A stretch of 32,528 nucleotides of DNA from Sediminibacterium sp. Its GTDB lineage: Bacteria; Bacteroidota; Bacteroidia; Chitinophagales; Chitinophagaceae. The notes under the pieces are model-generated. The model was not told the origin of the DNA. It saw nothing but the letters and a program-made list of their open reading frames with translations, and made no database searches. How positions within the stretch are numbered: the stretch's first letter is position 1; each line of letters starts with the position of its first letter. This document shows positions 1-19,200 of this stretch, piece by piece. The position numbers were made by a program, and so were the translations under genes. The stretch covers positions 1-32,528 of the forward strand of contig JBIKJM010000001.1 in NCBI GenBank assembly GCA_044360985.1, written 5' to 3'.

Positions 1-158
1 ACTACTTTTATTGTAAAATTTGCCGATGATGTTTTTGTATTTATTGTATCAGGAGAAATATTTATTGAAATTAATTCCGGAGAAAGAATATCTGATTGTG
101 AATAAATATTATCAAATAATAACACCAAGAGTAATGTTATAATAAATTGTTTATACAT
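1..158 (-). CDS. 5' part of a secreted protein (truncated by window edge; not in ORF track)
   Basis: Hand translation from ATG at 158 gives MYKQFIITLLLVLLFDNIYSQSDILSPELISINISPDTINTKTSSANFTIKV..., open to base 1. It has a Sec signal peptide with a Bacteroidota-type YS|Q cleavage site. Confidence 0.75.
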   Translation of the reverse strand, partial: MYKQFIITLLLVLLFDNIYSQSDILSPELISINISPDTINTKTSSANFTIKV

Positions 159-234
159 TTAAACATTTTTTGAGATAAGTATGATATGTAAATATAACTA
201 ATTTTATTAATATTAAAGATTTTCAAGGGTGTAT

Positions 235-441
235 TGTGGCTCGTCTTTGGGTTGTTTGTTTTGATTATCAATCTAATACAGTGATAATCGCAGAGTTTGT
301 TTTCAAAGGACGGCCCCAGCCAGTTCACAATCTAGCTTGTAATAAGCACTAAAAACTCCGAAATCGTCAAGAAATCGGAGTTTTTTTATGCCCTTGTGGC
401 ACGCTTTTGTAGTCTTTTGTATTGTTTTTTGTGGCTCGGTT
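235..441 (+). repeat. Intergenic att-like repeat, full copy 1
   Basis: TGTGGCTCG (235); GATTATCA..TGATAATC (263-289); CCCAGCCAGTTCACAA (315-330); hairpin AAAAACTCCGA..TCGGAGTTTTTTT (351-387); TGTGGCACG (395); TGTGGCTCGG (430). About 13 differences from copy 2 by hand alignment. Confidence 0.95.
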
Positions 442-617
442 TATAGAGTTGTTCATTATTAGGCTTTATTGAATAATAAATAGGGAGCTAAATACATAAG
501 ATGTTTAAGCATTTTGAGTGTTGAAGCCCTTATTTCATTTTCACACAATTTGCACACCTAAAGCAGATTAAAAACAAAATTCAGCCTTTAAGTTGTAACT
601 TATAAAAAATTAATAAT

Positions 618-1190
618 ATGAAATATCTCTTCTTCTTACTTATATTTCTGCAATTGCAGTCATATGCACAAGTTGCTGATAATGTTAATACTAGAACCTT
701 AGGTCGTTTTATTTCAAAAAGTGCTACTAATCCTAATTTATATGTGGAAATTACACCTACATACGCCTTCCATACTGGCGATTTAAGTGACATTTATAAT
801 AATGGATACGGTGGATTATTCTCTATAAATCATAGATTAAAATCATCTGAAATAATTTTTGTTGAATTAGGCTATGTAAGTTTTAAAGGGAAACAAATTA
901 ATGTAAATTATACATTTACTCCACCATCATTTATTCACATACCTATAAGTATTGGTGTAAAACAATATAAAAAGAATTTTATTTGGGGTATAGGGGTTGG
1001 AACTGGAATATCAAAACTCGATGGAGTTAATGAAAGTACAACAAAGTTAATGATTAATCCTATTCTAGGTTATGATTTTGGACCTATCACATTGGGTATA
1101 AATTATTCTATTACGGCAACAGAAAAAGAAGCTGGTATTACTCGTAATACAAATAAATATTTAGGGGTAAGACTTTCCTTGAAACTTTAA
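618..1190 (+). CDS. Outer-membrane beta-barrel protein (small, OmpA/PorT-like barrel)
   Basis: Signal peptide ending YA|Q, alternating amphipathic strands (FVELGYVSF, IPISIGVKQY, PILGYDF) and a C-terminal strand YLGVRLSLKL. Confidence 0.75.
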   Translation: MKYLFFLLIFLQLQSYAQVADNVNTRTLGRFISKSATNPNLYVEITPTYAFHTGDLSDIYNNGYGGLFSINHRLKSSEIIFVELGYVSFKGKQINVNYTFTPPSFIHIPISIGVKQYKKNFIWGIGVGTGISKLDGVNESTTKLMINPILGYDFGPITLGINYSITATEKEAGITRNTNKYLGVRLSLKL

Positions 1191-1324
1191 AATTCATCTT
1201 TTACACCCTCTTTGACTAAGGTAGCAAAGGTTGAGAATATTTGGTTTAATTTTTTGTCCCAAAGAAAATCATATTATAAAATAAACTACTTTTAAATAAC
1301 AATAATTTTTAAATTAAAATTGTT

Positions 1325-2599
1325 ATGAAAAATTTATATCCTCTTTTATTTTTAATTGTACTATCAAGTTGTACAAAATCATCAAAAGAAGATGTGATTC
1401 TTCCCACTCAAAAAGTTCCAAATGCACCCGCAAATTTAAAAATAGCTATTGTTTTAGTTGGCCAAATTGATTTAACATGGAATGATAGCTCAACAAATGA
1501 AACAGGTTTTAGAATTGAAAGAAAAACCGATTCTACTGAATACTCCGAAATTGCTACCACTAATCAAGATGTTGCAAATTTTACTGATAAAAATGTTCAA
1601 ATAAATACAACCTATTCATATAGAGTATATAGCTACAACCAAGCAGGTAAATCAAACCAGAGTTCCAATGAACGAACAGTAAAGACTTGGAATATTCCAA
1701 CACTTACTACAAATGTCATAACAGATATTAGAATATCTGGTGCAAAATCGGGAGGTAATGTTAGTTCTATTGGAGGAGTAAGAGATCTTATTGCAAGAGG
1801 TGTAGTATGGGGAACAAGTAGCAACCCAACAGTTGCATTAAGCACAAAAACAATCGAAGGAAACGGCACAATGTTTCCTGGTAGTTCTATCCCAGGTAAT
1901 GGAAATGGAACTTATACAAGTAATATTACTGCATCTAAAGAAGGTACTAAATATTATGTAAGAGCTTACGCTACTAATATTGTTGGAACAGCTTATGGAC
2001 AAGAGATCTCTTTCACTACCAATGTTTTTACCTTTAATACTGTTATAGGTGCAAATAATAGAGTTTGGATGGATAGAAATTTAGGCGCTGAAAGAGTTGC
2101 AATAAATAAAACAGATGAAGCCTCCTATGGAGATTTATACCAATGGGGAAGAGGCAAAGATGGTCATCAAATTCGAACATCAAGCACTACATATATTTCA
2201 TCAATTTCAGATACACCAGGTCATAATTTTTTTATTACAGGTATAGATTGGCGAAACCCACCAAATAACAATTTGTGGCAGGGAGTAAGTGGAGTAAACA
2301 ATGCATGTCCAATTGGTTTTAGATTACCAACTACAGAAGAATGGAATACAGAACTATCAAGCTGGAGCAGTGCAAGTCCAGAAGGTGCTTTTGCATCAGC
2401 ACTTAAGTTGCCTCTTTCGGGAGCAAGAGGAATAAATTCAGGTGGTCTAATAGATATTGACGTGTGGGGTTTCTATTGGTCAAGTTCTGTAGTTACAAAT
2501 GACAAATCCGCTTACTATCTAGCAGTCTCTGAAACCAAAACAGGTTCAGTCCCCAATGCAAGAGGCGTTGGAATGTCTGTTCGTTGTATAAAGGAATGA
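1325..2599 (+). CDS. Lipoprotein with FN3 domain, Ig/FN3-like stalk and FISUMP (Fib_succ_major)-like head
   Basis: Lipobox LSSC. FN3 motifs APANL..LTWNDSS.NETGFRIER..YSYRVYSYN. Head motifs WMDRNL, YGDLYQW, CP.GFRLPT..EW, YWSS, SVRCIK. Confidence 0.85.
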   Translation: MKNLYPLLFLIVLSSCTKSSKEDVILPTQKVPNAPANLKIAIVLVGQIDLTWNDSSTNETGFRIERKTDSTEYSEIATTNQDVANFTDKNVQINTTYSYRVYSYNQAGKSNQSSNERTVKTWNIPTLTTNVITDIRISGAKSGGNVSSIGGVRDLIARGVVWGTSSNPTVALSTKTIEGNGTMFPGSSIPGNGNGTYTSNITASKEGTKYYVRAYATNIVGTAYGQEISFTTNVFTFNTVIGANNRVWMDRNLGAERVAINKTDEASYGDLYQWGRGKDGHQIRTSSTTYISSISDTPGHNFFITGIDWRNPPNNNLWQGVSGVNNACPIGFRLPTTEEWNTELSSWSSASPEGAFASALKLPLSGARGINSGGLIDIDVWGFYWSSSVVTNDKSAYYLAVSETKTGSVPNARGVGMSVRCIKE

Positions 2600-2612
2600 A
2601 AATAGAAAATAA

Positions 2613-2818
2613 TGTGGCTCGTCTTTGGGTTGATTGTTTTAATTATCAATCTAATACAGTGATATTCGGAGAGTTAGTTTTAAGAGGTCGGCCCCAGCCA
2701 GTTCACAATCTAGCTTGTAATAAGCACTAAAAACTCCGAAATCTTACGAAATCGGAGTTTTTTTATGCTCTTATGGCACGCTTTTGTAGTCTTTTGTATT
2801 GTTTTTTGTGGCTCGGTT
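2613..2818 (+). repeat. Intergenic att-like repeat, full copy 2
   Basis: Colinear with 235-441: core 2693-2708, hairpin 2729-2764, boxes at 2613, 2772 (TATGGCACG) and 2807. Confidence 0.95.
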
Positions 2819-2842
2819 GATTTAGCTTAAATTGACGAATGG

Positions 2843-3754
2843 TTAAAAAGCCCTAATGGCACGAACATAGTATGAGCTTTCCTTGTCAGGGCTGCCCTCC
2901 AAACCAAGGTTGTAGAAAACCTTTATCCACGCGTATGGGTAGGTTGTTAAGCCCTGCGAAATGCGGGCGGACTCCGAAGAACTCCAATAGCCTTCCGTCT
3001 TAAAACCGCCAATCGCATCTTTATTTAGAAATAATTTATTTAATTCATTTTTACTTGGTAAAAACCAGTCATTAAATCCTCCACCATTATGCGCTCTCGC
3101 TAACCCTGCTGCATAGCGGGTAGCAGGAAAATCGGGAATTCCACCTTGAATTGTTATAATTTTATTGGTATTAACTAAGCCTGCGCCTATTGCAGTATCT
3201 GTTCCATATCCTGTAAATGAAAGATAAATAAGAGCATTAGGTGTTGGTAAACCAATAGCCCAAGGAACTTTATTAACCGACGCGTCTGAGGTTGCAGCAA
3301 TTAAACCGCGTTTTATCTTTGCATCATAACCAGGGTCTCCTGGCTGTAAAAAATACGCAACTATACCTCCTTGAAACTTTTGTCCAATTTTTATTAATCC
3401 CAACCTCATAGAATCATTAGCAGAAATTTTAATACAAGACAATAGTCTTAGAGTATCTTGAGTATTAGGTTTTAATACCCCCAACCTTACTGAGTCACAT
3501 CCAGTAATTTTGATGCAAGAAAGTAGTCTAATAGTATCTTGAGTATTAGGTTTTAATACCCCCAACCTTACTGAATCACAACCAGAAATAGACAAACAAG
3601 AAAGAAGTCTAATTGTATCATTAGTAGTTTTTAATAACCCTTGTTTTATAGAATCACAACCATTAACTTTATTCACAACTGGAGGAGTAGTTTCAGATTT
3701 TGAACATGAGTAAATGACTATAGAAATTAGAAACAATAAAACTAGTTTTTTCAT
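2843..3754 (-). CDS. Lipoprotein with Cys-containing tandem repeats and DUF1566-like head
   Basis: Lipobox IYSC. Head motifs IGQKFQGGIVAY, GLIAA, DWFLPSKNEL, YWSSSE, VRAIRAF. Confidence 0.85.
   Translation of the reverse strand: MKKLVLLFLISIVIYSCSKSETTPPVVNKVNGCDSIKQGLLKTTNDTIRLLSCLSISGCDSVRLGVLKPNTQDTIRLLSCIKITGCDSVRLGVLKPNTQDTLRLLSCIKISANDSMRLGLIKIGQKFQGGIVAYFLQPGDPGYDAKIKRGLIAATSDASVNKVPWAIGLPTPNALIYLSFTGYGTDTAIGAGLVNTNKIITIQGGIPDFPATRYAAGLARAHNGGGFNDWFLPSKNELNKLFLNKDAIGGFKTEGYWSSSESARISQGLTTYPYAWIKVFYNLGLEGSPDKESSYYVRAIRAF
3390..3661 (-). repeat. Intragenic tandem repeat, ~81 bp / 27 aa unit, ~3.4 copies
   Basis: GCDS(V/I)..G.LK...DT(I/L)RLLSC..I units. The 42 nt blocks 3452-3493 and 3533-3574 are identical and offset by 81. 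Confidence 0.95.
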
Positions 3755-3809
3755 ATTTTAATTTTTTTAAGTTTAACTAAAAAATATAATAAATAATATT
3801 ACCAAACTG

Positions 3810-3832
3810 TTGCCTCCCACCCTTTTTCTTGG
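3810..3832. repeat. 23 bp motif, copy A
   Basis: TTGCCTCCCACCCTTTTTCTTGG, 22/23 identical to 9133-9155. Confidence 0.85.
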
Positions 3833-3871
3833 GAAATTCCCGTAGAATTCGCTCAAATAGAGATAGATTTT

Positions 3872-3916
3872 AGCACTAAAAACTCCGAAATCTTACGAAA
3901 TCGGAGTTTTTTTATG
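3872..3916 (+). repeat. Att-like repeat, partial copy 3 (hairpin/terminator module)
   Basis: 45 nt identical to 2723-2767. Confidence 0.95.
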
Positions 3917-3951
3917 TATCTAAAGTTTAGTAACACATAAAATTCAAAAAT

Positions 3952-4827
3952 TTAAAAAGCTCTGATTGGAACGCTATAATAGTTAAAACCTTGCTTGGAT
4001 TTAATCAATTCTATATTATTGTCAAATGAATATGCTCTGGATGAATCAGCTTCACTAGAAGTCCATATTGGAAACGACGTACTTATTTGAAGTTTTCGCT
4101 GTTTTTCTTTTAAATTGTAAGCTATCATTGCTAAATATTCATCCCTACTTGGGATAAACCAATCGGAATAACCCTGGTATTTATTCGCATTTAATTTGAT
4201 AATACTATTCCCTATATACAATCCCATAGTAGGGCATCCTTTGTTTATAATTTTATCAGTATTAGATTTTCCTGCACCAATTATTGTTGATGTACCAAGA
4301 TTTATTTGTCCGCAATCAAATTTCCCACTTTCTACTGCTGGTCCACCAATAGCCTGTAGACCATGAGTTTCTCCATTAATAAACCCATTTTCTCCTTCCT
4401 TAAACATATAAAAAACAATTCCGCCAGGGCCCATCCATGAAACATCAACTGGAAGCTTCGTAGAAATCTCATTGCTATAAGAAGTTCCTATTTTATTAGT
4501 TGCAAATGCTCTTACGTAATAAATTTTATTCATAGTTATACCATCAATATTTTCTCGCATTGAAGAATCACCACTTTGTGAAATAAGTTTATTCCCAGAA
4601 CTTAATGAAAGATTTGGTGATACTCCCCAAATCACTCCTTGTTCAGTAATTGATGAGCCACCATTTTTAATTACACTTGCAATTACTGCAAATCTAGCGA
4701 TTGATTTTTCTTGAAAATCAACAGATACTGAAGATAAAACAGGAAGTGAAATTGATGCTGTGTTAGTATCATTTTTGGTACATGAGCAACATATTAAAAT
4801 CAGCACTAGGGCATAGCTTTTAAACAT
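3952..4827 (-). CDS. Lipoprotein with Ig/FN3-like stalk and divergent DUF1566-like head
   Basis: Lipobox CCSC. Stalk GGSSITEQGVIW..YYVRAFATN.IGTSY. Head GPGGIVFY, DWFIPSRDE, WTSSE, PIRAF. Confidence 0.8.
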   Translation of the reverse strand: MFKSYALVLILICCSCTKNDTNTASISLPVLSSVSVDFQEKSIARFAVIASVIKNGGSSITEQGVIWGVSPNLSLSSGNKLISQSGDSSMRENIDGITMNKIYYVRAFATNKIGTSYSNEISTKLPVDVSWMGPGGIVFYMFKEGENGFINGETHGLQAIGGPAVESGKFDCGQINLGTSTIIGAGKSNTDKIINKGCPTMGLYIGNSIIKLNANKYQGYSDWFIPSRDEYLAMIAYNLKEKQRKLQISTSFPIWTSSEADSSRAYSFDNNIELIKSKQGFNYYSVPIRAF

Positions 4828-5095
4828 ATATTGTATTTATTGCGTGAACAAAAAGTGTTTTTATTATATCATAAAATTAATGAATATAATAATGCAAAAC
4901 TCGGCTAGGTTCAGGACCAAAAATTTAACTCAAAAAGGGTAAAATAGCTGAAACAGGAGAAATATCAAACTATTTCAATCTTATACCCTTTAAATTATCA
5001 ATAAAAATAAAAGATGTAGAATACAAGTAGAAAATCTCGTAAATGTCTAAAATTTAGAAGGTACACGCCATATATTAATTTCAAAGTAAACACAA

Positions 5096-5188
5096 TGTGG
5101 TAAGTCTTTGGAATTACAAATTAGATTATCAAGCTATTACAGTGATATTAGCAATGTTAATTATAGTAGGTCTTCCCCAACCTATTCT
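5096..5188 (+). repeat. Att-like repeat, degenerate left-half copy 4
   Basis: TGTGG..GTCTTTGG..GATTATCAAGCTATTACAGTGATATT..AGGTC..CCCCAACC aligns to 235-330 with the same spacing. Confidence 0.8.
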
Positions 5189-5302
5189 TAGTGCTTTTAG
5201 ATGAAGGCAGCAACAGAATCTAACATATCATATTACAACATATTATATATTTTTTGAATTTTACAAAATATATGATTATTTTTAAAATAAAAACCAAATT
5301 TT

Positions 5303-5704
5303 ATGAAAACACTATTAAAAAGCTCCATCTTATTGCTATTCTTTTCATTCTCATTATTAGTATTTAACCTGAGTTGTAAAAAGGAATCAACCGCTCAGAA
5401 CACCTCAACAAGTATCCAAAATCTAGGTATTTTGGTTTTTACGAAAGTTAATGGTAAAGTAAATGAATTTTGGACTTCCAAATATGATGGATCTGGTCAA
5501 ACCAAAATTACAATTTCTTCGCTTCCCGCTAATGGAGAAATTGCTCATGAAAGTATTAAAATTTCACCTGATGGAAAGAAATTTTTCTTTTTTGTATTTT
5601 TTATTTCTACAAATACTAGCTCTGCAATATACTCATGCAATTCCGATGGGACAGGACTAACTAAAGTAGCTGATGATATTGATCAACTTTCTGATGTAAA
5701 GTAA
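5303..5704 (+). CDS. Small lipoprotein with TolB/DUF5050-like propeller blades
   Basis: Lipobox NLSC. Motifs WTSKYDGSGQTKI, ISPDGKKFFF, IYSCNSDGTGLTKV. Confidence 0.75.
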   Translation: MKTLLKSSILLLFFSFSLLVFNLSCKKESTAQNTSTSIQNLGILVFTKVNGKVNEFWTSKYDGSGQTKITISSLPANGEIAHESIKISPDGKKFFFFVFFISTNTSSAIYSCNSDGTGLTKVADDIDQLSDVK

Positions 5705-5734
5705 AGTGAAATTTAAAAAAAATAAACTTTTGAC

Positions 5735-5815
5735 AAAAACTCCGAAATCGTCAAGAAATCGAAGTTTTTTTATGCCCTTGTGGCACGTTACGGTATTGTT
5801 TTGTGTGGCTCGGTT
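5735..5815 (+). repeat. Att-like repeat, right-half copy 5
   Basis: Hairpin plus TGTGGCACG (5779) and TGTGGCTCGG (5804); matches 351-441 with a short internal deletion. Confidence 0.92.
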
Positions 5816-5989
5816 GGTGACTATGAAAAAACTTATAAGTAAGCTAACCGAATTCAGGGGGTATTTTCCTCACGCAGGGAAACTATAGAAATCAACCCCC
5901 ATAAAGATCACAAGAACTAAAAAAAATATATCTTAGAAGTCGCATTAATTTAACAAATTTAAGGCCTAGGTAAATAAATTAATATTAAT

Positions 5990-5997
5990 TATATTTG
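5990..5997 (+). promoter_or_regulatory. Putative Bacteroidota -7 promoter element
   Basis: TATATTTG matches TAnnTTTG and ends 17 nt before the ATG at 6015. It is a short motif in AT-rich DNA. Confidence 0.45.
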
Positions 5998-6014
5998 ATA
6001 TATAATTTAATTAA

Positions 6015-7289
6015 ATGAAACTAATCAATTTAGCACTTGTTTTGACATTACTCTCATGCAGTAAATCAAATAATGAAAAGATCGAAAAAGTTGAAAAAAT
6101 TGAAACCTCTCCATTAGCTCCTACTGATTTAAAGACTACTATTTTTTCAAAAGATCAAATAGATCTAACATGGAAAGATAATTCATCAAATGAAATTGGC
6201 TTTAAAATTGAAAGAAAATCAGGAACATCCAATTTTACAGAAATTGGCATAACTGACCAAAATATAGTTTCATTTTCAGATAAAACAGTGACAATTAATA
6301 CCAATTATATTTATAGAATTTATAGTTATAATAATGTTGGAAAATCTATTCAATATTCAAATGAATCGAATATACAACATATAAATATACCAACAATTTC
6401 AACAAAAAATATAACTGATATTTCTGGAAATAGCTCAAAAACTGGGGGAACAATCACATCTGATGGCGGTTCTTCAATCACATCAAGAGGTATAGTTTGG
6501 GATACAAAAAGTAACCCAACAATAGTATTAACGACTAAAACCACTGACAGTATAGGAATTGGCGAATTTAAAAGTTCAATATCTGGACTAATGACGAATA
6601 CAAAATATTTTGTTAGAGCATACGCCACAAATCTTGCTGGAACAAGTTATGGGAATGAAGAATCATTTACAACTTTAAGCTTTAACACAGTAATTGGAGC
6701 AAATAATAGAATTTGGATGGACCGAAATCTTGGTGCCACAAGAGTAGCAACTAGTAATTCTGATGAAGAAGGATTCGGCGATTTATATCAATGGGGCAGA
6801 AATTCAGATGGTCATCAAATAAAAACTTCTGGCACATCTAACAATTTGTCTAATACTGATTTAGTAAACAATAATTTATTTATAATTACTTCAAGTGAAC
6901 CTTATGATTGGAGAGTACCACAAAATAATTTATTATGGCAAGGCGTTAATGGTATAAACAATCCATGCCCTAAAGGATTTAGAATACCAACATATGAAGA
7001 ATGGGAAATAGAAGTAGCAAGTTGGCCCCCGCAATTAGTAAATAACAAACCAATTTGGGGTGTAATGAGCGCTTATTCATCTGCATTAAAATTACCATTG
7101 CCAAATACTAGGAATACCATTGGAAATATTATTTCTATTGGTTACTCAGAATATTGGACAAGCACTGTACCGACAGGAAGTTCAGGAGCGATAGCATTAA
7201 TATTTAATTCAAAAAGGAATGATTATGGCTTTACAACAGGTGGAGATCGACGTGCTAATGGCTTTTCATGTAGATGTATTAAAGATTAA
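6015..7289 (+). CDS. Lipoprotein with FN3, stalk and FISUMP-like head (paralog of 1325..2599)
   Basis: Lipobox LLSC, same length (424 aa) and shared blocks FNTVIGANNR.WMDRNLGA.RVA, GDLYQWGR..DGHQI, NNL(L)WQGV, SALKLPL, RCIK. Confidence 0.85.
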   Translation: MKLINLALVLTLLSCSKSNNEKIEKVEKIETSPLAPTDLKTTIFSKDQIDLTWKDNSSNEIGFKIERKSGTSNFTEIGITDQNIVSFSDKTVTINTNYIYRIYSYNNVGKSIQYSNESNIQHINIPTISTKNITDISGNSSKTGGTITSDGGSSITSRGIVWDTKSNPTIVLTTKTTDSIGIGEFKSSISGLMTNTKYFVRAYATNLAGTSYGNEESFTTLSFNTVIGANNRIWMDRNLGATRVATSNSDEEGFGDLYQWGRNSDGHQIKTSGTSNNLSNTDLVNNNLFIITSSEPYDWRVPQNNLLWQGVNGINNPCPKGFRIPTYEEWEIEVASWPPQLVNNKPIWGVMSAYSSALKLPLPNTRNTIGNIISIGYSEYWTSTVPTGSSGAIALIFNSKRNDYGFTTGGDRRANGFSCRCIKD

Positions 7290-7302
7290 ATTTATAAAAA
7301 AA

Positions 7303-7465
7303 TGTGGCAAAACTTTGAGTTTATAATCATGATTATCAAACTAATATAGTGATAATCGCAGAGTTAGTTTTCAGAAGTCGGCGTAGTGAAACGAAGCCAA
7401 CAATCCCAGATATGCAAAACTCCGAAATCGTCAAGAAATCGGAGTTTTTTTATGCCCCGTGGCAC
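7303..7465 (+). repeat. Att-like repeat, variant copy 6 with extra hairpin
   Basis: TGTGGC (7303); inverted repeat 7331-7357; GTCGGC-GTAGTGAAACGAA-GCCAAC-AATCCCAG (7377-7409); hairpin 7416-7451; GTGGCAC (7459). Confidence 0.92.
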
Positions 7466-7510
7466 AATCAAAAAATAAAATAAAGCAATTGTAGATTTTA
7501 AATCAATTTT

Positions 7511-9019
7511 TTATTTCCTAATAAATTTTGACCCATTCCATTCCCATCTGATATTGTCTTTTTTTTCTGCAGAAAAAATATCAACCATCCCATTTTTATC
7601 AATATCTTGAACTATCACGTGATAAAATCTGTTCGCTGTATGATTATCTATATAAAGTGTTGTTTTATCGGAATATGTTTTTCCCTTATCCTCTGATTTA
7701 TAAAAAGATATAAAATAAATAGGAGCCCCCCCAATAGAAAGGGAGTAATTACCACTTGGAATTATTTCTTTTATTCCATCTCCATTAATATCTATAAAAT
7801 CTATATTTTGTAAATACCAATCTCCTGACATACTAATAGAAGTTGAATTGCTTAGGTTAAACACTTTACCATTCCCCCACAAAATCCTAAAGTCATTTAT
7901 TCTACTTGCTCCATTTGGGTGAAAATTTAAAACTAAATCTAAAAAACCATCATTATTTATATCCACTAGTTCTGATTGATCAGCAACCGGAATATCTCCA
8001 ATCCCATTAAAATCAATAGTAAAATTGGCCTTCCCATCATTCCACATGATTCTACTTTTAACCCCATTTGCTTGGCTATGAAAATTAAATGTAATAATGT
8101 CTAAATCACCATCATTGTCAATATCTCCTGAACATCCTGTGTACCAAAAGCCTTGATCATTAAACTCTTTTACTAAAGAAAATCCATTTTTTGAATTTAA
8201 CAGAAGATGACAGTTATCATTTAAATAAGGGAACGGAACCCCAATAGGTGGATCTACAGCGACATTTGAAAATATATCAGGTAAAGAATCATTATTAAAA
8301 TCTCCAACTAACAATTTTGTACCATGGGGGTTTTTTATTGAAGAACCTGTGTAATTTGTTTGCTTTAAAACACTTCCATTGTTCATAAATATGGATGGAG
8401 GAGGATTGGGAGTTGGATTAATTTGTAAGTCATAACCTTCAAAGTAAAATAAGTCTTCTAACCCATCTCCATCAATATCTAATTGTACCGATTGCTCATC
8501 GATAAATGGATTATTAACATACTTACTTCCATCAGATTTATACAATTGGGCAGAAGAAAACCAAGTATCATTATTTGATAATTCATACGAAGACTTTAGA
8601 TAATTTTTATAAATCCTGCTTCTGCTGAAGGCATATTTTTGAATAACTGTATTCGTTGATGCTGATTTAGAAGTTAGTGTAATTCTTATATTGTAAGTCG
8701 CCTTTATATTTAAGCCTATTGCTTTAAAATTAATTGATGACTGAGAACTTGATGTATCAATTTTGTATACCGTAAGATTGGTATCGACTCTCTTTATTTC
8801 GATGCTATATAAAATTCCTTGGCTAGGAATTTTAGAATTTATAGCAATAGCAAAATCAAAAGTATCCTTATTTAAGGTATAACTATTAGAAGAAATATCA
8901 GGTGAGATGCTAAATTTAATTGCTTCTTCTTGAAAATCAACATTAGCTGGGGTTTTGATTTCTGTTTTCGTACAAGAATAAATAAATAAAACTCCCGCAA
9001 AAAAAATTACTCTATTCAT
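7511..9019 (-). CDS. Lipoprotein with N-terminal beta domain and FG-GAP/VCBS repeats
   Basis: Lipobox IYSC. Repeats DIDGDGLEDL, GDFNNDSLPDI, GDIDNDGDLDI, DINNDGFLDL, DINGDGIKEI, DIDKNGMVDI. Confidence 0.88.
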   Translation of the reverse strand: MNRVIFFAGVLFIYSCTKTEIKTPANVDFQEEAIKFSISPDISSNSYTLNKDTFDFAIAINSKIPSQGILYSIEIKRVDTNLTVYKIDTSSSQSSINFKAIGLNIKATYNIRITLTSKSASTNTVIQKYAFSRSRIYKNYLKSSYELSNNDTWFSSAQLYKSDGSKYVNNPFIDEQSVQLDIDGDGLEDLFYFEGYDLQINPTPNPPPSIFMNNGSVLKQTNYTGSSIKNPHGTKLLVGDFNNDSLPDIFSNVAVDPPIGVPFPYLNDNCHLLLNSKNGFSLVKEFNDQGFWYTGCSGDIDNDGDLDIITFNFHSQANGVKSRIMWNDGKANFTIDFNGIGDIPVADQSELVDINNDGFLDLVLNFHPNGASRINDFRILWGNGKVFNLSNSTSISMSGDWYLQNIDFIDINGDGIKEIIPSGNYSLSIGGAPIYFISFYKSEDKGKTYSDKTTLYIDNHTANRFYHVIVQDIDKNGMVDIFSAEKKDNIRWEWNGSKFIRK

Positions 9020-9132
9020 AAATTAACTTTTAAAACCCTTTCAGGTGATTTAAAAGTATCATTATTTAATCATATTATTAAATAAATTTATACATCTAGA
9101 CTGACTAAGCTCTATATTAAGAGTAATATTCT

Positions 9133-9155
9133 TTGCCTCCAACCCTTTTTCTTGG
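9133..9155. repeat. 23 bp motif, copy B
   Basis: TTGCCTCCAACCCTTTTTCTTGG; see 3810-3832. Confidence 0.85.
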
Positions 9156-9165
9156 TAATAAATAG

Positions 9166-9200
9166 AAACTTCGAAATCGTATAGAAATCGGAGTTTTTTT
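9166..9200 (+). repeat. Att-like repeat, last partial copy 7 (hairpin only); probable right boundary of the array
   Basis: AAACTTCGAAATCGTATAGAAATCGGAGTTTTTTT; I saw no further copies downstream. Confidence 0.85.
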
Positions 9201-9280
9201 ATTGCCTAAATGCATACTTTCCAGTCATTTGAACCCTATATTAAAGTACCAAAATATACAAGTTTTTCATACTTTTATAT

Positions 9281-10312
9281 ATGTCATCAATCAATTGGAA
9301 CGATTCTTTAAATTTAATCAGTAAACTCACACCAAAAAGAATTTGGAATGGCCTAAAAGTTTTATCCAGTTATTATGCAAGTATCCTATTCAATCGACCT
9401 ATTCAATGGGGCTACCCTGTTTCTATCTCTTTTGAACCCACTACCAGTTGTAATTTAAGATGTCCTGAATGTCCGAGTGGCTTAAGAGCATTCACACGCC
9501 CTACAGGCATGTTAGAGAAAAATTTTTTTAAAGAAACCATTGACGAAATAAATAAAGAACTATTATACCTCATTTTTTATTTCCAAGGGGAACCCTATTT
9601 GAATACTGATTTTCTAGAAATGGTTCAATATGCAAGTAGTAAAGGTATATATACTGCTACTTCAACAAATGCACATTATTTAACAGACGAAAATGCGAAG
9701 AAGACTGTTGAAAGTGGACTTGATAGACTCATTATTTCACTTGATGGTACCACTCAGGACACCTATAAGCAATATCGTATAGGTGGGAACATTGATAAAG
9801 TCTTGGAAGGTGCGAAAAACATAGTGAAATGGAAAAAAGAACTTAAAAGTAAAACCCCATTTGTATTTTTTCAATTTTTAGTAGTCCAACACAACGAACA
9901 TCAAATTGAAGACGTCAAGAAATTAGCAAAAGCAATTGGAGTAGATGAAGTTCGATTAAAAACAGCCCAAGTGTATGACTATGAAAATGATCCTAACCAT
10001 TTGATCCCTAAAAACGAGAAATATAGTCGTTACAAAAAGAATAATGATGGCACATTTAAAGCAAAAAATAAGCTAGCCAATCGTTGCTGGAAAATGCAAC
10101 ATGCCAATGTCATTACTTGGGATGGCTTAGTAGTGCCCTGCTGCTTTGATAAAGATGCATCTCATCAATTAGGGAATTTGAAAACCCAATCTTTCAAAGC
10201 TATTTGGGAAAATAGTAATTATCAGCAATTTAGATCTGAGCTCATGAAGAGCAGAAAAAATATTGATATTTGTGCTAATTGCAGTGAAGGCACTTCAGTT
10301 TGGCAGGATTAA
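9281..10312 (+). CDS. Radical SAM / SPASM(twitch)-domain protein
   Basis: CNLRCPEC (CxxxCxxC), GEPYL, ISLDG, and C-terminal C..ITWDGLVVPCC..LGN...CANC. Confidence 0.93.
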   Translation: MSSINWNDSLNLISKLTPKRIWNGLKVLSSYYASILFNRPIQWGYPVSISFEPTTSCNLRCPECPSGLRAFTRPTGMLEKNFFKETIDEINKELLYLIFYFQGEPYLNTDFLEMVQYASSKGIYTATSTNAHYLTDENAKKTVESGLDRLIISLDGTTQDTYKQYRIGGNIDKVLEGAKNIVKWKKELKSKTPFVFFQFLVVQHNEHQIEDVKKLAKAIGVDEVRLKTAQVYDYENDPNHLIPKNEKYSRYKKNNDGTFKAKNKLANRCWKMQHANVITWDGLVVPCCFDKDASHQLGNLKTQSFKAIWENSNYQQFRSELMKSRKNIDICANCSEGTSVWQD

Positions 10313-12760: not shown

Positions 12761-13222
12761 CTACTTTGCACTAAGATCAAATTGCCTTGTGGCAAAATTT
12801 CCTGTATTTGAGATAGCGTTTATTTTTACAACAGCATAACAACGAACTCCAGGTTTTAATCCTGTTATTGTAATTGAATTACTAGCTTGATTAGACAAAG
12901 GAATTTCCCTTGTAAAAACAACAGCTGAATTAGGCACTTTAGGAAATACATCTACTACTATTTTAACTCCAGCACTAGGTAATGTGGAACTAATAGCTGC
13001 ATCGATAGTGACAGAAGTTCCTATAACAGGAAAATTGTCAGTATAGTTCACTACTGCACCATCAATCTTAACATCAAATGCGATAGCAGCGTCAGGCTTA
13101 GTGTTGTCCTTTGGTGGCGTAGAAGAACCGCTATCACCCCCTTTACTACATCCAGCAAAAGATAGCACAATAAAACTTAACGCAATAATGGTACTTGTTT
13201 TTACAAATTTAGTTTGTTGCAT
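12761..13222 (-). CDS. Small lipoprotein, beta-sandwich-like
   Basis: Lipobox FAGC and a G/S/P linker; starts 3 nt after the stop of the giant gene. Confidence 0.8.
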   Translation of the reverse strand: MQQTKFVKTSTIIALSFIVLSFAGCSKGGDSGSSTPPKDNTKPDAAIAFDVKIDGAVVNYTDNFPVIGTSVTIDAAISSTLPSAGVKIVVDVFPKVPNSAVVFTREIPLSNQASNSITITGLKPGVRCYAVVKINAISNTGNFATRQFDLSAK

Positions 13223-13225
13223 AAA

Positions 13226-16200
13226 TTATAATTTAACCATTTTAAATTGATGAGCTACTTTAAAATCAGGCGAAGCGATTCTTACAAAGTAAACGCCTGG
13301 GTTTAATTCATTGAATGTTAATCTCGAGCCTGCTGTAACACCTATTCTTGTTGCCATTTTAGCGCCAGTTGCTGCAGAGAATACATCTATATTCAATCTT
13401 TGATGCCCTTTGACAACAAAGTCTATATTCATAAAATTAATGAAAGGATTTGGAGTTAACTTAATAAACTCATCCCAACTTAATCTAATGATATCAGTTA
13501 CTAAGTAATAATAAGGACTACTGAATGCACTAGTACAACCATTAACAGTAGTATTAACTGTATAGCTACCAACTTCAGAAGGTCTAAATGTAGCATTTGT
13601 ATTTGAAATTTTCTCGCCATTTTTATACCAATTTAATTGGATTGTGCTAGAAGAAATTAGATTACCGGCAGTATCTCTAACAATTATTGGTGTAATAGGA
13701 ACAACATTAACTGTTAAATCAATTTTAGCTCTATCACTTTCACATCCACTCAATGAATCAACTTGACTTACATAATATGATGTAACACCTGCATTAGATA
13801 TAGTAGGTGTTGGTGCGATATTAGTAGCAGAACCACCTGTGGCATTTGTACCATACCAACTTAACCTGCTCTTAGCACTTGCTTTAGCAGTAAGTGGCAC
13901 AGCAACTGAATTTGTACACAAAGAAAGCGCTGCTACAACTGGATTTGCTGGTTTAGGATTAATTGCAATATTCATTGGTTTAATAACAGAACAATTATCT
14001 GAATTTGTTGCTTTGATATAATAAATTCCAGATGATGCAATTTTTGTAGGATCCTTGATAACTGTTATTTCATTTACATCATTAAAATAACTTAGATTAA
14101 AGGTGCCTGTACTTCCATTTCTATAATTAACATCGGTTAAATTAATTATACCAGGACTACAAATAGCTGCACTTGAAGTAACTGTCAAATTAGGCTTAGT
14201 TGTACAAGTAGAAATAAATTTAATGATCTTATCGGTGTTGATTCCAAAATCATCAATTGCACTTACTCTTACAGTTAGTGTATCTGCACTATTCAATTTT
14301 CGTTTATTTACAAGTACATTATCTCGAACATAGAAAGAGGCATTATTTAAATCACCAGTTCCAGAAACTAATTTATAAACAAAAGTTGCGCTTGAGCTAT
14401 TGTTTGTATTTGAATAAACTGCCTGTAATCCTGTCGCTAGTAATGATGAATCTATACCAGCATTATATCTAATAAAATCAGTACTTACACTATTCAATAA
14501 TATATTGTCTGCTGATTGTCTAACATAAATATTAAATGTTTTAACAAGATCACTGCCTAATGTGTCAGCACCTTTAATAACCAATTTATATAAAGTGTCG
14601 ATCAATTTAGACTTAAGCGTTAATGTATTTGTCACACTATCAAAAGCAAATATAGGGTTAGTGGCGCCAGTTCCTGTGACTAATGATAATTTATACTTAG
14701 CAGATACTTCTTTTGATATTGCTTTTAATATCACTTTAAAATTTGCAGAATCCCCTTTTCTAAAGTAATAATTAGTAGAGGTTGAATCATTAAATAAGAT
14801 ATCAGAAGGCGGCGAAGCTTCTTTAGTTTCACCTTGTGCAGATAAAGTAAACATTTTACGATCAGAGAAACTTGATCCTGCAAAAGAGGCATCTACAGCT
14901 TGTACAGAATAATAATACTTTCCTGGAGGTAATGCAATTTGCCAACTAGTGTCTTTTCCTACATTACCATCTTGAGGTTTCTTTTGCATTCCAGTTGCTA
15001 AATCAGATTCAACACTCACAACATCGGAGGTTGAATATCCTGTACCAATTGAAAGAGAATAAGTCAAACCCGAACTTGGTGTATTATCGTCTTTCGCTTT
15101 TTTCCAGTTAAATTCTACTAAATAGTTTTTGTCACGTTTTTTAAGTACGCTTAGGTTATTTAGTTCAGGTTTACTTGGAGCTGCATTGGCTATATAAATA
15201 GCTTCGTTTAATTCCTGATCAATCTTTTCAAGGTCATCAGCAAATGATTTCTTTGCACTTATTGACATTGATGTTTTTTGTCCAGTTGAATTGGTTTGAT
15301 TATTTGATGCTGGAAGAACTACTTTAGATGCAGCATTTCTTACATTCTGTAGAATTCTAAATGATTTATACAAATTAGAAGGATACAATGGATCTTTTTC
15401 ACTTCCAACCAACACAAATCCTAGCTGACCATCCCCAGCGATATCGCCCATTGAAGGAGTCAATTTAGAATAATTTCCAAAAGGGAAGGTTGTTAATTCA
15501 TTGAACTGAGTAAACCCTGAGGCTCCCTTAACAGATGTTGCCATTTTTGTTATAAAACCAGAGCCATCTCTATCGCCACTAAAAATGACATCAGGAAATC
15601 CGTCCCCATTATAATCACCCCAAGTTGTTTTAGAGTTTTGAACAGGTTGAAGTCCAGCTGTAGTCACATTAATGAAATTTAAACCATTTTGTTTAGTATA
15701 ATTATTTTGATATATATTAAATATTTCACCTATACCGCTAGCATAGCCAGTCATAGCAACATCCAATAAACCATCATTGTTGAAATCTACTAATTCAACT
15801 TTACCATTTTTAATTTTTGGTAATCTCATACCAGTAAATTTAGTGAATAAATTACTGTTTGTTGCGCTATCAAATACATTGGTATAAATATCAGTAAATC
15901 GAGCAAATCCAACACCTTCATAAGTTGTAATTAAATCAAAAGTTTTGTCTTTATTCAAATCACCGAATGCAAATTGAATATTTTGTGGATCATTTGCATT
16001 AATTAACTGCGTTAAATTATTTGGCAAAGTGGATACTCTGAAGTTGTTAGGGATAGTTTTATTTGTTGTATCCTTAGAAATCTTATAAATACTTACAGTT
16101 CCTACTCCATTCGCTTGAGTGCCCCCGTATATCATATCCATATAACCATCGTTATCAAAATCAGAAAATTCCAATTTCGGCGTTCTTAAAGGTTGTGGGA

Positions 16201-19200
16201 TTGCGAATTTAGAGGTTACATTCGTGAACCTAAAATTATTATTTTGATTTTGATATACCCTAAATGTTGGCGTTGAGCTAAAATTATTAGGGTCTTCTCC
16301 AGCAATTACAATATCAATAAAACCATCTGCGTTGATATCTACACATTTAACTTCAATATTTTTTAAACCAGTCAACCCTTCTAAACCAGTTGTACTAATT
16401 TTTGCAAATTTATTTCTCTGATTTTGATATACACCAGTAGGACCTGAACTAGAAATAGATTGACTACCTAAGTAAATAAAGTCAGATAATCCATCATTAT
16501 TGAAATCTGCCCATGCAAAGGCAGGATTATCAACTGGCTGAATTCTTCTGTCAATCAAGCCACCTTGGTTCACAAACTTCCATGGATAAGATATTGAGAA
16601 GCTTGACTCTTCTGAAAAATCAGAACTTTCAAAATTATTATCAATTGCCATAACAGACCAGAAATATTTACCTGGTAATAATTCTAAATAATATGAATTA
16701 CCACTAATTAATGCCGTATTAGATGTTAAGAGTTTAAACTTTCCATTCACTTTACTAACTGGCACGGACATAATTTCAGATCCGCCAGCAGTTGTACCCA
16801 CTCGAATTTGATAATACAAGCTATTTTGGGAGCTACGATCGTCTATAGGTGGCGTCCAAGATAATTTAATTCTTCCTAAACCAAAATCTGTAATATTTAA
16901 TCCAGTTGGTGGGGATGAAGGTGCTAAATTTTTATTATCACCTTGATTATTAATGAATACGGATAAAGCAGTTACCCCTTTATTTTCTCCAGCAACAAGC
17001 AAATCAACTGTTCCTGTATTATCAAAATCAGCCCATGCAATAGTAGAAGCAGAATATTGAGGCAAAGCAACATTTTTGACGGTATCAAAATTATTGAATC
17101 CGCCCATATTCAAAAGAATCTTAGTTGTAGGCGAATTAAGTTTATTCGTACCAGTATAACCTAAATCCAATAATCCATCATTATTATAATCTGCAAATTT
17201 TACAGAACCTTTGTCAACACTATCAATAACTGATTCTTGTGTGTATATATAATTATTGTAACTATTGGTTGATCTGCTTTCTTTTGTTAAATTTTTAATC
17301 ATCTTCACAATTGGAGTTGCTACAACATTAGACCCTCCATTTTGATTCGTGCCAATCAGGACAATATCCATATCACCATCATTATCAACGTCACCTAAAT
17401 CGAATTTTGCATTTGCTAAATTTAAGCCTTGTACATAATTAGTGCTAAATGAACTAATATAGTTGATTGTATTTTTAGGATCTAATAAAGTATTCACTTT
17501 GATGCCCCCTAAACCAATCGCTGTTGATTGATCTAATTTATTGCTTCCTGCGTAAATCAAATCAAGATCACCATCTAAATCAAAATCTATAAATCTAATA
17601 TCTCCATCACACATAGATGGAATAATTTGACTTGAGTTATCAACTACAAAATTACCTTTACCATCATTATTTAACAAATAAGATCTTGGATTACTTAGAG
17701 AGTCAGCGCCAATAATTACTAAGTCATTAGTTCCATTCGCATCATGATCTCCAAAAGCTATCGTAGAGTTTTTAAGAGCTGGTATTGACATCGGTTCAGT
17801 GATCTCAAAGAATGATTTCCTATTTGTAAATAATTGCACTCTATTTCTACTTGCAGTGGATTGTCCAACAGCCAATAAATCTAGCCAGCCATCATTATTA
17901 ATATCTGCCCACTTTAAATCACCATTTTGCAATGGAAGATTTGTTAATCCAAGATCAGTTAAAACTCCATTTTTATTTTGATAAATAGCCGTAACTGACT
18001 TTCCTTCATCATCTTTTCCCATTGCAGCCAAATCCATTAAACCATCATTATTAAAATCTCCCCATGACAACCTAGCATTTTCAAGACCAGGTAGAATATT
18101 ACTTAAACTTTTAGTCAACACATCTTTAGGTGTAAAAGATAATTGAGTTTCCGCACTTACATACCCATCAGGATTGACTGTTTGAATAGCAATATAATAT
18201 GGTTTTTTTGAACTTACTGCATTGTCTTTAAATGTAAGAGAATCTATATAAGATCCAAATTTCATTCCATCTAATACAATTGGAACTTTTGAATTTGAAG
18301 CTCTATAGTTGTGGAATGTATTTAATTTAGCATTCTTAAAGGTATTAGAAGTATCAATTTTAATATTATAAGTATTGACACTATTTGAAGCTTGATTTAA
18401 TACTTTATCCCATTTCACTTTAATTTCATAACCATTGTTGACTCCTGTTAGATTCTTTGGAGCTAAAAGCGTTGGTGAGGTAATTGATTTAGATGGAGTT
18501 TGAATTAAAGCTCTTAATACTCTAGCTGTATAATATGTATTCTGACTAGAAGCATATTCATTCCAAACCAAATCTTTATAACCATCATTGTTTAAATCTA
18601 ATAATCTGAAATTATATGGATAATTATTGCCTTGACCATCTCGATTGAAAGGATTGTCAAATTTACTTACATCCTTAAATCCATCTAACTGGTTGTTTAA
18701 ATAAATTTGGATAGTTCCAGAATTTGCAAATTGAGCAATATCAGGGAACCCGTCACCATTCACATCAGCAACATCAAATCTTCCATCTTGTAAATTAACT
18801 TTTAATTTATAGTCGATATTGAATGTTGTTAGTCTATTTGTCCTGTTATCGAATTTAAATGTATTGTATGCACTTGAACCACTTGTTCTTGCTATCACAT
18901 AAATTCCATGTTGTAAATTTTTCATTGCACCTATATACAATGAGGTATTATAGTCTAAAGAAACATTTGTATAAAACAATTCATAAGAGCCCATTTTCTT
19001 ATTGGATACAAATACCATTAACGGAGAACCACCAACAGATTGCAAGCCAATCCAATTATTCCAATTCGTAGTAGCAAAGACATCTTTGAGGCCGTCATTA
19101 TTTACATCTATAAATTTAATAAGTTTTAATGTTGCATTAATATTTTGGTAGTTAGTTCCTTCATTTGAAAATTGAGAAGCCCATTTAATCTGCATAGGAG

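What the first reader, a model, noticed from the sequence alone, without database searches (positions are those of the whole stretch)
235..9200. Integron-like array of surface-protein cassettes delimited by a ~207 bp att-like direct repeat
Seen: seven full or partial copies of one non-coding element (235, 2613, 3872, 5096, 5735, 7303, 9166), all in the same orientation, separate units of one or two genes. Every cargo gene is a lipoprotein, secreted or outer-membrane protein, and genes lie on either strand. Copies 1 and 2 differ at only about 13 of 207 positions, while paralogous cargo genes differ at many synonymous sites. Established: tandem integrations by tyrosine recombinases leave directly repeated attP-like junctions. 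Inference: this is a recombinase-driven stockpile of non-autonomous ligand-binding or adhesin cassettes, functionally like an integron but not using attC. No integrase is in the window.
Basis: partly seen in the sequence, partly recalled or inferred. Interest (0 to 1): 0.9.

Follow-up and report, generated by a model that had tools for sequence, protein, structure and literature searches.

The report
Stacked integrase-less cargo units at tRNA-Lys
In a lake bacterium (likely Sediminibacterium), genes for predicted surface proteins are stacked between the docking sites of a small DNA element that inserts at a lysine tRNA gene; most stacked units lack the element's integrase and are likely reshuffled only when an intact copy is present, a new variant of a known way bacteria build variable gene islands.

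Summary
The repeat is real, but it is not an integron attC. It is the junction site of an integrative element: left arm, 16-bp tRNA-Lys(TTT) 3' end, terminator hairpin, right arm. The only other copies in the genome are on contig C7, one fused to the intact tRNA-Lys. Relatives show all four site types around the same core: empty, left end, right end and tandem junction. The likely parent is a 7-9 kb element with a tyrosine integrase, an HTH protein and a polymerase-A-like gene. It lies between these sites in several relatives and lake contigs, and the DNA just upstream of its integrase survives in the window at 3799 and 9132. So the window is a stack of integrase-deleted derivatives carrying mostly predicted secreted or lectin-fold cargo, and content and order differ between strains. 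Only two of the seven window copies are complete. About half of the scored units end at junctions where no left arm was found, which point to deletion or homologous recombination. The closest known systems are cis-mobilizable elements (CIMEs) in tandem accretion and additive tRNA islands. No circles or trans-mobilisation were shown.

The parts
3..158 (-).
   Evidence: translation
235..441 (+). Complete tandem junction (P-core-P'): left arm 235-314, core CCCAGCCAGTTCACAA 315-330 (tRNA-Lys 3' end), terminator-like hairpin 351-385, right arm 395-441
618..1190 (+). Cargo, 190 aa, signal-peptide-like start, no Pfam family
1325..2599 (+). Cargo lipoprotein-like, fn3 + Fib_succ_major, 424 aa
2594..2612 (+). 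Remnant of the parent's sequence just outside the left arm (module W); it overlaps the stop codon of the 424-aa gene
2613..2819 (+). Complete tandem junction, core at 2693-2708
2843..3754 (-). Cargo, 303 aa, weak Lcl_C match, 81-bp internal repeats
3799..3874 (+). Module U: DNA found directly upstream of the parent integrase gene (93% identical to L167)
3872..3916 (+). att hairpin fused directly to U (no left arm, no core)
3952..4827 (-). Cargo lipoprotein-like, 291 aa, weak Lcl_C match
5094..5182 (+). Degenerate left arm, 72% identical, no recognisable core
5303..5704 (+). Cargo, 133 aa, lipoprotein-like start, no Pfam family
5735..5816 (+). Hairpin + shortened right arm (no core)
6015..7289 (+). 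Cargo lipoprotein-like, fn3 + Fib_succ_major, 424 aa; 51% identical to the first
7301..7465 (+). Hybrid junction: left arm + piece of the hairpin motif that lies downstream of the empty tRNA site in relatives + att hairpin; no core
7511..9019 (-). Cargo FG-GAP repeat protein, 502 aa; an 83%-identical copy lies directly behind tRNA-Lys in L146
9132..9202 (+). U remnant (9132-9158) fused to att hairpin (9163-9202); last copy in the array
9281..10312 (+). Radical SAM/SPASM gene beside the array; not a conserved boundary

Best explanation
The repeat is the joined end of two neighbouring copies of a DNA element that inserts at the 3' end of tRNA-Lys, and the array is a stack of such copies that have lost the integrase and are likely still excised, integrated or carried along when an intact copy supplies it. 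Shown: (1) a 16-bp core identical to the tRNA-Lys 3' end, with empty, left-end, right-end and tandem-junction forms in relatives; (2) an integrase-bearing 7-9 kb element between these same sites, laid out as tRNA - core - hairpin - right arm - antisense cargo - U - integrase - small ORF - polymerase-A-like gene - left arm - core; (3) window units keep the outer modules and lack the inner ones; (4) cargo and order differ between strains. Inferred: the TGTGGC(A/T)CG repeats are arm-type binding sites of that integrase; new units enter at the tRNA and push older ones outward; deletions remove the integrase module; junctions that lose the core become substrates only for homologous recombination; the hairpin terminates both the tRNA and the convergent cargo transcript; contigs C7 and C91 are two ends of one island.
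For: Core and four site types: (101 distinct core contexts: B-P' 36, P-P' 29, P-B' 12, B-B' 8, 16 other or truncated). Filled versus empty: G033 has one 4.4-kb integrase-less unit between left and right ends, and G082 and G070 have the empty site with the same flanks. Integrase with Arm-DNA-bind_5, SAM_5 and PF00589 domains plus an HTH_17 neighbour lies inside att-bounded units in L167 and L152. It also lies behind tRNA-attL-cargo-U in L146, G108 and G164; G108 and G164 were fetched by protein search, independently of the att. G164 holds a complete element with a right end. U occurs in window and C7 units and in 28 of 47 units. Lake contigs join U directly to the left arm or hairpin at four different points. 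The integrase is present in all four lake runs laid, which also hold the window array. In G012 versus L125, host flank is 84% identical, a cargo gene 94% and an att copy 98%. The FG-GAP cargo is last in the window but first behind the tRNA in L146.
Against: No close relative of the integrase in G000, G012, G033 or G021, which carry arrays (completeness 66, 89, 94, 95%). 26 of 47 units end at a right arm with no left arm found, and only 2 of 7 window copies are complete, so many units cannot be standard integrase substrates. No circle was shown; contigs cannot tell a circle from a tandem junction. Only 17 of 53 breakpoints of shared blocks fall near a module in both partners, against 12% of bases near a module, so most do not map to att sites. 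Another, unrelated integrase (L136, G179) uses the same tRNA core with its own left arm. The parent has no relaxase or capsid Pfam match, so the route between cells is unknown.
Confidence: 0.55

Rival explanations
1. Dead relics. Each unit entered as a complete autonomous element and then lost its integrase module; afterwards it never moves by site-specific recombination and is kept only because the cargo is useful.
For: Several different deletion points; most window junctions are degraded; arrays exist in genomes where the integrase was not found.
Against: Conservation rises sharply at the outermost TGTGGC repeat of the left arm and stays high through the right arm (43 left arms, 70 right arms), although left arms were picked by that motif. 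29 distinct complete junctions exist. G033 and L125 hold integrase-less units with intact ends.
Confidence: 0.25
2. Homologous recombination is the main engine. The 90-200 bp modules act as homology anchors, so cargo is swapped, looped out or duplicated by host recombination, and the integrase only seeded the locus.
For: 25 distinct junctions are U fused to the hairpin without a core (18 + 7), a form integrase cannot make in one step but recombination at hairpin + right arm would propagate. Junctions are mosaics of modules. L001 and L104 share a 97%-identical unit but close it with different junctions.
Against: The empty and filled forms switch exactly at the 16-bp core, too short for ordinary homologous recombination (own knowledge); 12 distinct right-end sites of canonical form exist. 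This rival can act together with the best explanation.
Confidence: 0.17
3. True integron, REP/MITE repeat, or diversity-generating retroelement target array.
For: Short gene units between repeats; lectin-fold (Lcl_C, Fib_succ_major) C-termini are typical retroelement targets (own knowledge).
Against: No attC boxes on either strand; integrase scores 58.7 bits against a 265 cut-off for integron integrase; copies occur on 2 of 229 contigs only; no reverse transcriptase (PF00078) in 0 of 5 genomes, with the control ringing in 3 of 14.
Confidence: 0.03

Closest known systems
Cis-mobilizable elements (CIMEs) in tandem accretion, streptococci (PMC7563491, PMC5704250; passages read)
   Same: Deletion derivatives that keep att sites but lose integration genes; stacked in tandem at the 3' end of a target gene; 1.2-13 kb with cargo; one published set targets a tRNA-Lys.
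   Different: CIMEs derive from ICEs or IMEs and move by conjugation; here the parent shows no relaxase match and has a polymerase-A-like gene. Published composites have 2-3 elements; here about 4-7 units, often with no autonomous member. Cargo is strongly skewed to predicted surface proteins.
Tycheposons and cryptic integrative elements of Prochlorococcus (bioRxiv 10.1101/2020.12.28.424599; passages read)
   Same: tRNA-targeting tyrosine integrase, excisionase, replication genes including polymerases, cargo; neighbouring elements separated by partial tRNA copies; elements rarer than the islands they build.
   Different: Different phylum; Bacteroidota-type integrase with an Arm-DNA-bind_5 domain. 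No homology to tycheposon hallmark genes was tested. Here the units keep whole att arms and a stereotyped layout.
Additive flexible genomic islands, e.g. fGI-2 of Ca. Methylopumilus (PMC10872708; passages read)
   Same: Freshwater bacteria, island at a tRNA-Lys marked by repeats of the tRNA 3' end, variable size and content.
   Different: There the repeat described is the last 20 nt of the tRNA; here about 200-bp junctions with arms are kept and a candidate parent element is identified.
Integrons (IntI/attI/attC; definition recalled)
   Same: Array of short variable gene units separated by recombination sites, new units likely added at one end.
   Different: No resident IntI, no attC boxes, tRNA target, cargo mostly antisense to the array with its own upstream region.
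NBU1-type Bacteroidota IMEs (named in PMC5704250 passages; details recalled)
   Same: Small Bacteroidota elements with a tyrosine integrase of the arm-binding type.
   Different: NBU1 encodes a MobP relaxase; none was found in the parent ORFs scanned.

Membership tests
Integron | IntI integrase next to the array | tested here: not met
   None of the 11 window proteins scanned is an integrase; only PF00589 hit in G000 is XerD-like on C44; candidate integrase 58.7 bits vs 265 cut-off for TIGR02249. The gap between C7 and C91 is unseen.
Integron | attC sites with RYYYAAC / GTTRRRY boxes on one long hairpin | tested here: not met
   No box on either strand; the fold shows two local hairpins.
Integron | Cassette genes co-oriented and read from one upstream promoter | tested here: not met
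   89 of 104 genes after a right arm are antisense; the window has both strands.
CIME | Flanked by att sites of a site-specific integrative element | tested here: met
   Four site types around one core; met for unit 442-2612 and for G033, not for window units with core-less ends.
CIME | Lacks integrase and transfer genes | tested here: met
   (45 of 47 scored units without the integrase).
CIME | Derived by deletion from an autonomous element | tested here: met
   U and W remnants, joints skipping the integrase module.
CIME | Parent is an ICE or IME (conjugative or relaxase-bearing) | tested here: inconclusive
   No relaxase or T4SS Pfam match in the L167 and L152 ORFs scanned; a relaxase-free oriT cannot be excluded.
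CIME | Transfers by accretion and cis-mobilisation | not testable with these tools
   Needs excision and mating assays.
Tycheposon | tRNA-targeting integrase plus replication module, without conjugation or capsid genes | tested here: met
   For the parent only. The polymerase-A-like fold match is weak (Foldseek E 6.8e-5, TM 0.42).
Tycheposon | Hallmark genes homologous to the described tycheposon gene clusters | not tested
   No tycheposon sequences were compared.
Additive flexible genomic island | Variable-length island at a tRNA with repeated tRNA 3' ends | tested here: met
REP/MITE | Many copies dispersed over the genome | tested here: not met
   Copies on C91 and C7 only; all G012 matches within about 23 kb of tRNA-Lys.
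Diversity-generating retroelement | Reverse transcriptase and template repeat | tested here: not met
   PF00078 in 0 of 5 genomes, all incomplete; a template repeat was not searched for separately.

The most novel reading that the evidence does not exclude
A population-level cassette system. Lake Sediminibacterium keep stacks of miniature att-bounded units, each reduced to arms, terminator and a surface or lectin-fold gene. A rare 7-9 kb helper element with a polymerase-A-like gene passes through the population and supplies the integrase in trans, so surface-protein repertoires are shuffled integron-style without any resident integrase.
Probability: 0.3. Interest if true: 0.75.

Novelty: new variant of a known kind. 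Interest (0 to 1): 0.48.

Why it matters
It shows, with every intermediate visible, how a variable island is built in an abundant freshwater Bacteroidota group: empty site, complete parent, single integrase-less unit, long stack, decayed junctions. It names a candidate integrase and its att site, so whether integrase-less units in additive islands are dead relics or cargo still moved by a helper becomes directly testable. The strong bias to predicted surface and lectin-fold proteins suggests turnover driven by adhesion, phage or grazer selection, which is untested.

Tried and rejected
Rfam scan of 1-10000: nothing above a gathering score; Yfr10 hits are the terminator hairpin. Viral collection: no match to the core pattern, the left-arm pattern or the integrase, so no phage parent was found. 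The L136/G179 integrase was rejected as cognate because it has its own left arm. Integrases of G012, G033, G001, G002 and G004 have no att match nearby (9 of 20 loci mapped). The home-made integrase HMM included one non-integrase ORF, which gave a false hit (L044); real hits were checked. Retroelement idea: no reverse transcriptase. No RNA holder listed. Circles: contigs cannot show them. L137 matches window 315-2805 at 99.7% but is only a contig broken at the repeats. The 344-aa cargo in L117 and L139 is 85% identical in DNA, so it was not counted as the same unit in two positions. The C7-C91 gap could not be bridged. The radical SAM gene was rejected as a landmark: not found at E<=1e-80 in 31 of 60 genus genomes, including G001, G002, G012 and G033, and in other neighbourhoods in the 7 of 25 loci mapped. 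Literature searches for this system found nothing specific. No supplements were read, and most subscription papers are not in the library.
Full report
Observation. All seven positions hold parts of one element in the same orientation. Copies at 235 and 2613 are complete and differ at 13 of 207 columns. The others are partial: left arm only (5094), hairpin plus right arm (5735), hairpin only (3872, 9163) and a hybrid (7301). Five of seven cargo proteins match Fib_succ_major, Lcl_C (below cut-off) or FG-GAP; two have no family. In the 1.44-Mb, 66%-complete assembly the repeat occurs only on C91 and C7, so it is not a dispersed REP or MITE.

The anchor. On C7 one copy begins inside an intact tRNA-Lys(TTT). 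The middle of the repeat, CCCAGCCAGTTCACAA, is the tRNA 3' end. Around this 16-bp core, upstream is either tRNA (B) or left arm (P), and downstream is either the native terminator (B') or the element's hairpin and right arm (P'). Among 101 distinct core contexts I counted B-P' 36, P-P' 29, P-B' 12, B-B' 8, and 16 other or truncated. This sample is biased toward right arms, because most loci were fetched with a right-arm pattern. G033 carries one 4.4-kb unit with a single large gene between a left end and a right end, and G082 and G070 show the empty site with the same flanks. This is the pattern expected of site-specific integration (established knowledge; also described in PMC5704250 passages). 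That C7 and C91 flank one island is inferred: genes right of the window array lie downstream of tRNA-Lys in G033.

Distribution. The repeat matched 14 of 36 same-genus genomes and 0 of 24 genomes of other families. Of the best 30 tRNA-Lys loci from a second search, 29 showed the tRNA and 7 had the right arm within 230 bp. Record titles of contigs with the left arm name Sediminibacterium for 5 of 7 loci, with one Ferruginibacter and one Chitinophagia; the genus of G000 is inferred from that and from synteny. G012 has the tRNA followed by four more att copies over about 23 kb, with different cargo and no integrase.

The parent. A 404-aa integrase with Arm-DNA-bind_5, Phage_int_SAM_5 and Phage_integrase domains, followed by an HTH_17 protein, lies inside att-bounded units of about 9 kb in L167 and L152. 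It occurs in 5 of 110 metagenome loci. Its two closest relatives among 200 genus genomes (83% and 73%) both sit behind tRNA-Lys, left end, cargo and U, and G164 closes with left arm, core and native terminator. A 46% relative uses tRNA-Arg and lacks the TGTGGC arms in the stretches printed. The parent also encodes a 511-538 aa protein whose model (pLDDT 89) matches family A DNA polymerases weakly (best E 6.8e-5, TM 0.42; ESM Atlas lead). No relaxase or capsid family was matched. The DNA just upstream of the integrase (U) is present in the window at 3799 and 9132 and on C7, and a piece of the DNA outside the left arm (W) is at 2594. Lake contigs join U straight to the left arm or hairpin at four different points, skipping about 4.9-5.0 kb. 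The window units are therefore deletion derivatives of this element. The integrase is present, as short contigs of several variants, in all four lake runs laid; one of them may be the source of the window.

Anatomy of the stacks. Of 47 units scored, median 2.5 kb, 2 hold the integrase, 28 hold U, 21 end at a left arm and 26 end at a right arm with no left arm found by my pattern. This count includes near-duplicate contigs, drops ten overlapping loci, and under-counts long integrase-bearing units that run off contigs; the pattern also misses diverged left arms such as that in L146. Genes after a right arm are antisense in 89 of 104 cases and genes before U in 47 of 49, matching the parent's main cargo slot; L152 shows a second, sense slot before the left arm. 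By a crude rule 62 of 78 non-redundant unit proteins have a signal-peptide-like start, against 300 of 1005 genome ORFs, and 17 of 78 end in a lectin-fold-like tail against 5 of 1005.

Evidence of movement. The window's FG-GAP cargo (83% identical) is first behind the tRNA in L146 but last in the window. C7's first unit is 97% identical in L104 but closed by another junction and followed by another gene. Between G012 and L125 the host flank is 84%, a cargo gene 94% and an att copy 98% identical. Against a purely att-based model, only 17 of 53 breakpoints of shared blocks lie near a module in both partners, versus 12% of bases; some rows are host flank and rows are not independent. Independent lake contigs cover the window's units and overlap across the partial junctions, but none of the pieces listed bridges the two complete repeats, so the order there rests on this assembly.

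Mechanism. Most likely, complete elements integrate at tRNA-Lys and push older units outward, then lose the integrase module by deletion while keeping cargo and terminator. Units with intact ends would remain substrates for a visiting integrase (0.55). The alternatives are dead relics (0.25) and mainly homologous recombination at the shared modules (0.17), which best explains the core-less junctions and can act alongside. The arm-site role of the TGTGGC repeats, the terminator role of the hairpin and the route between cells are inferred or unknown.

Comparison. By the definitions in PMC7563491 and PMC5704250 (passages) the units work like CIMEs in accretion; membership is open because the parent is not shown to be an ICE or IME. 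The parent resembles tycheposons in layout (bioRxiv 10.1101/2020.12.28.424599, passages), and the island is an additive island like fGI-2 of Methylopumilus (PMC10872708, passages). It fails the integron tests. I found no paper on this system in six searches; the library is partial and no supplements were read. An earlier AI note on an integrase-less tRNA-Ser islet in another genome is a parallel, not support.

Verdict. Real, well resolved, and a new variant of a known kind. Interest 0.48; about 0.75 if trans-mobilisation of the miniature units is shown.

Noticed in passing
L136:8533-10046, L148, L116, L233 (G179:C30): A second, unrelated 407-aa integrase has its own left arm but uses the same tRNA-Lys core, so at least two element families compete for this site.
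   Followed up: partly
L172, L147, L125, L083; window 7374-7412: Some att right halves are joined to the end of a hairpin motif that lies downstream of the empty tRNA site and ends in ATCCC(A/T), like the tRNA T-arm; this may be a secondary insertion site.
   Followed up: partly
L146:4508-6597: The tRNA has one acceptor-stem allele (CGGGATC) while the next junction carries the other (CCAGTTC), so either the crossover lies at the right edge of the core or the stack came from another host lineage.
   Followed up: no
L152:3346-4881, L167:6845-8461, L232:1246-2796: Unannotated 511-538 aa family (81 homologues) with a family A polymerase-like fold and invariant acidic residues, in a small integrative element.
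   Followed up: partly
window 5845-5880: Short motif found 3 times in the genome and at high summed depth in lake contigs; also beside a tRNA-Met fragment in L133; possibly the end of another element family.
   Followed up: no
L036:11355-11732, L092:6002-6310: HigB-family toxin and an HTH partner recur just beyond the right end of the island in several relatives.
   Followed up: partly
window 12761-25159: A 3977-aa FG-GAP/fn3 protein with a 153-aa lipoprotein partner; a similar gene pair occurs inside an att-bounded unit in L074, so this block may be older cargo.
   Followed up: no
window 9281-10312: The radical SAM gene was not found in several close relatives and has other neighbours in more distant ones, so it may itself have been moved to this island edge.
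   Followed up: partly
window 3389-3662: Three to four 81-bp (27-aa) tandem repeats inside the 303-aa cargo gene.
   Followed up: no
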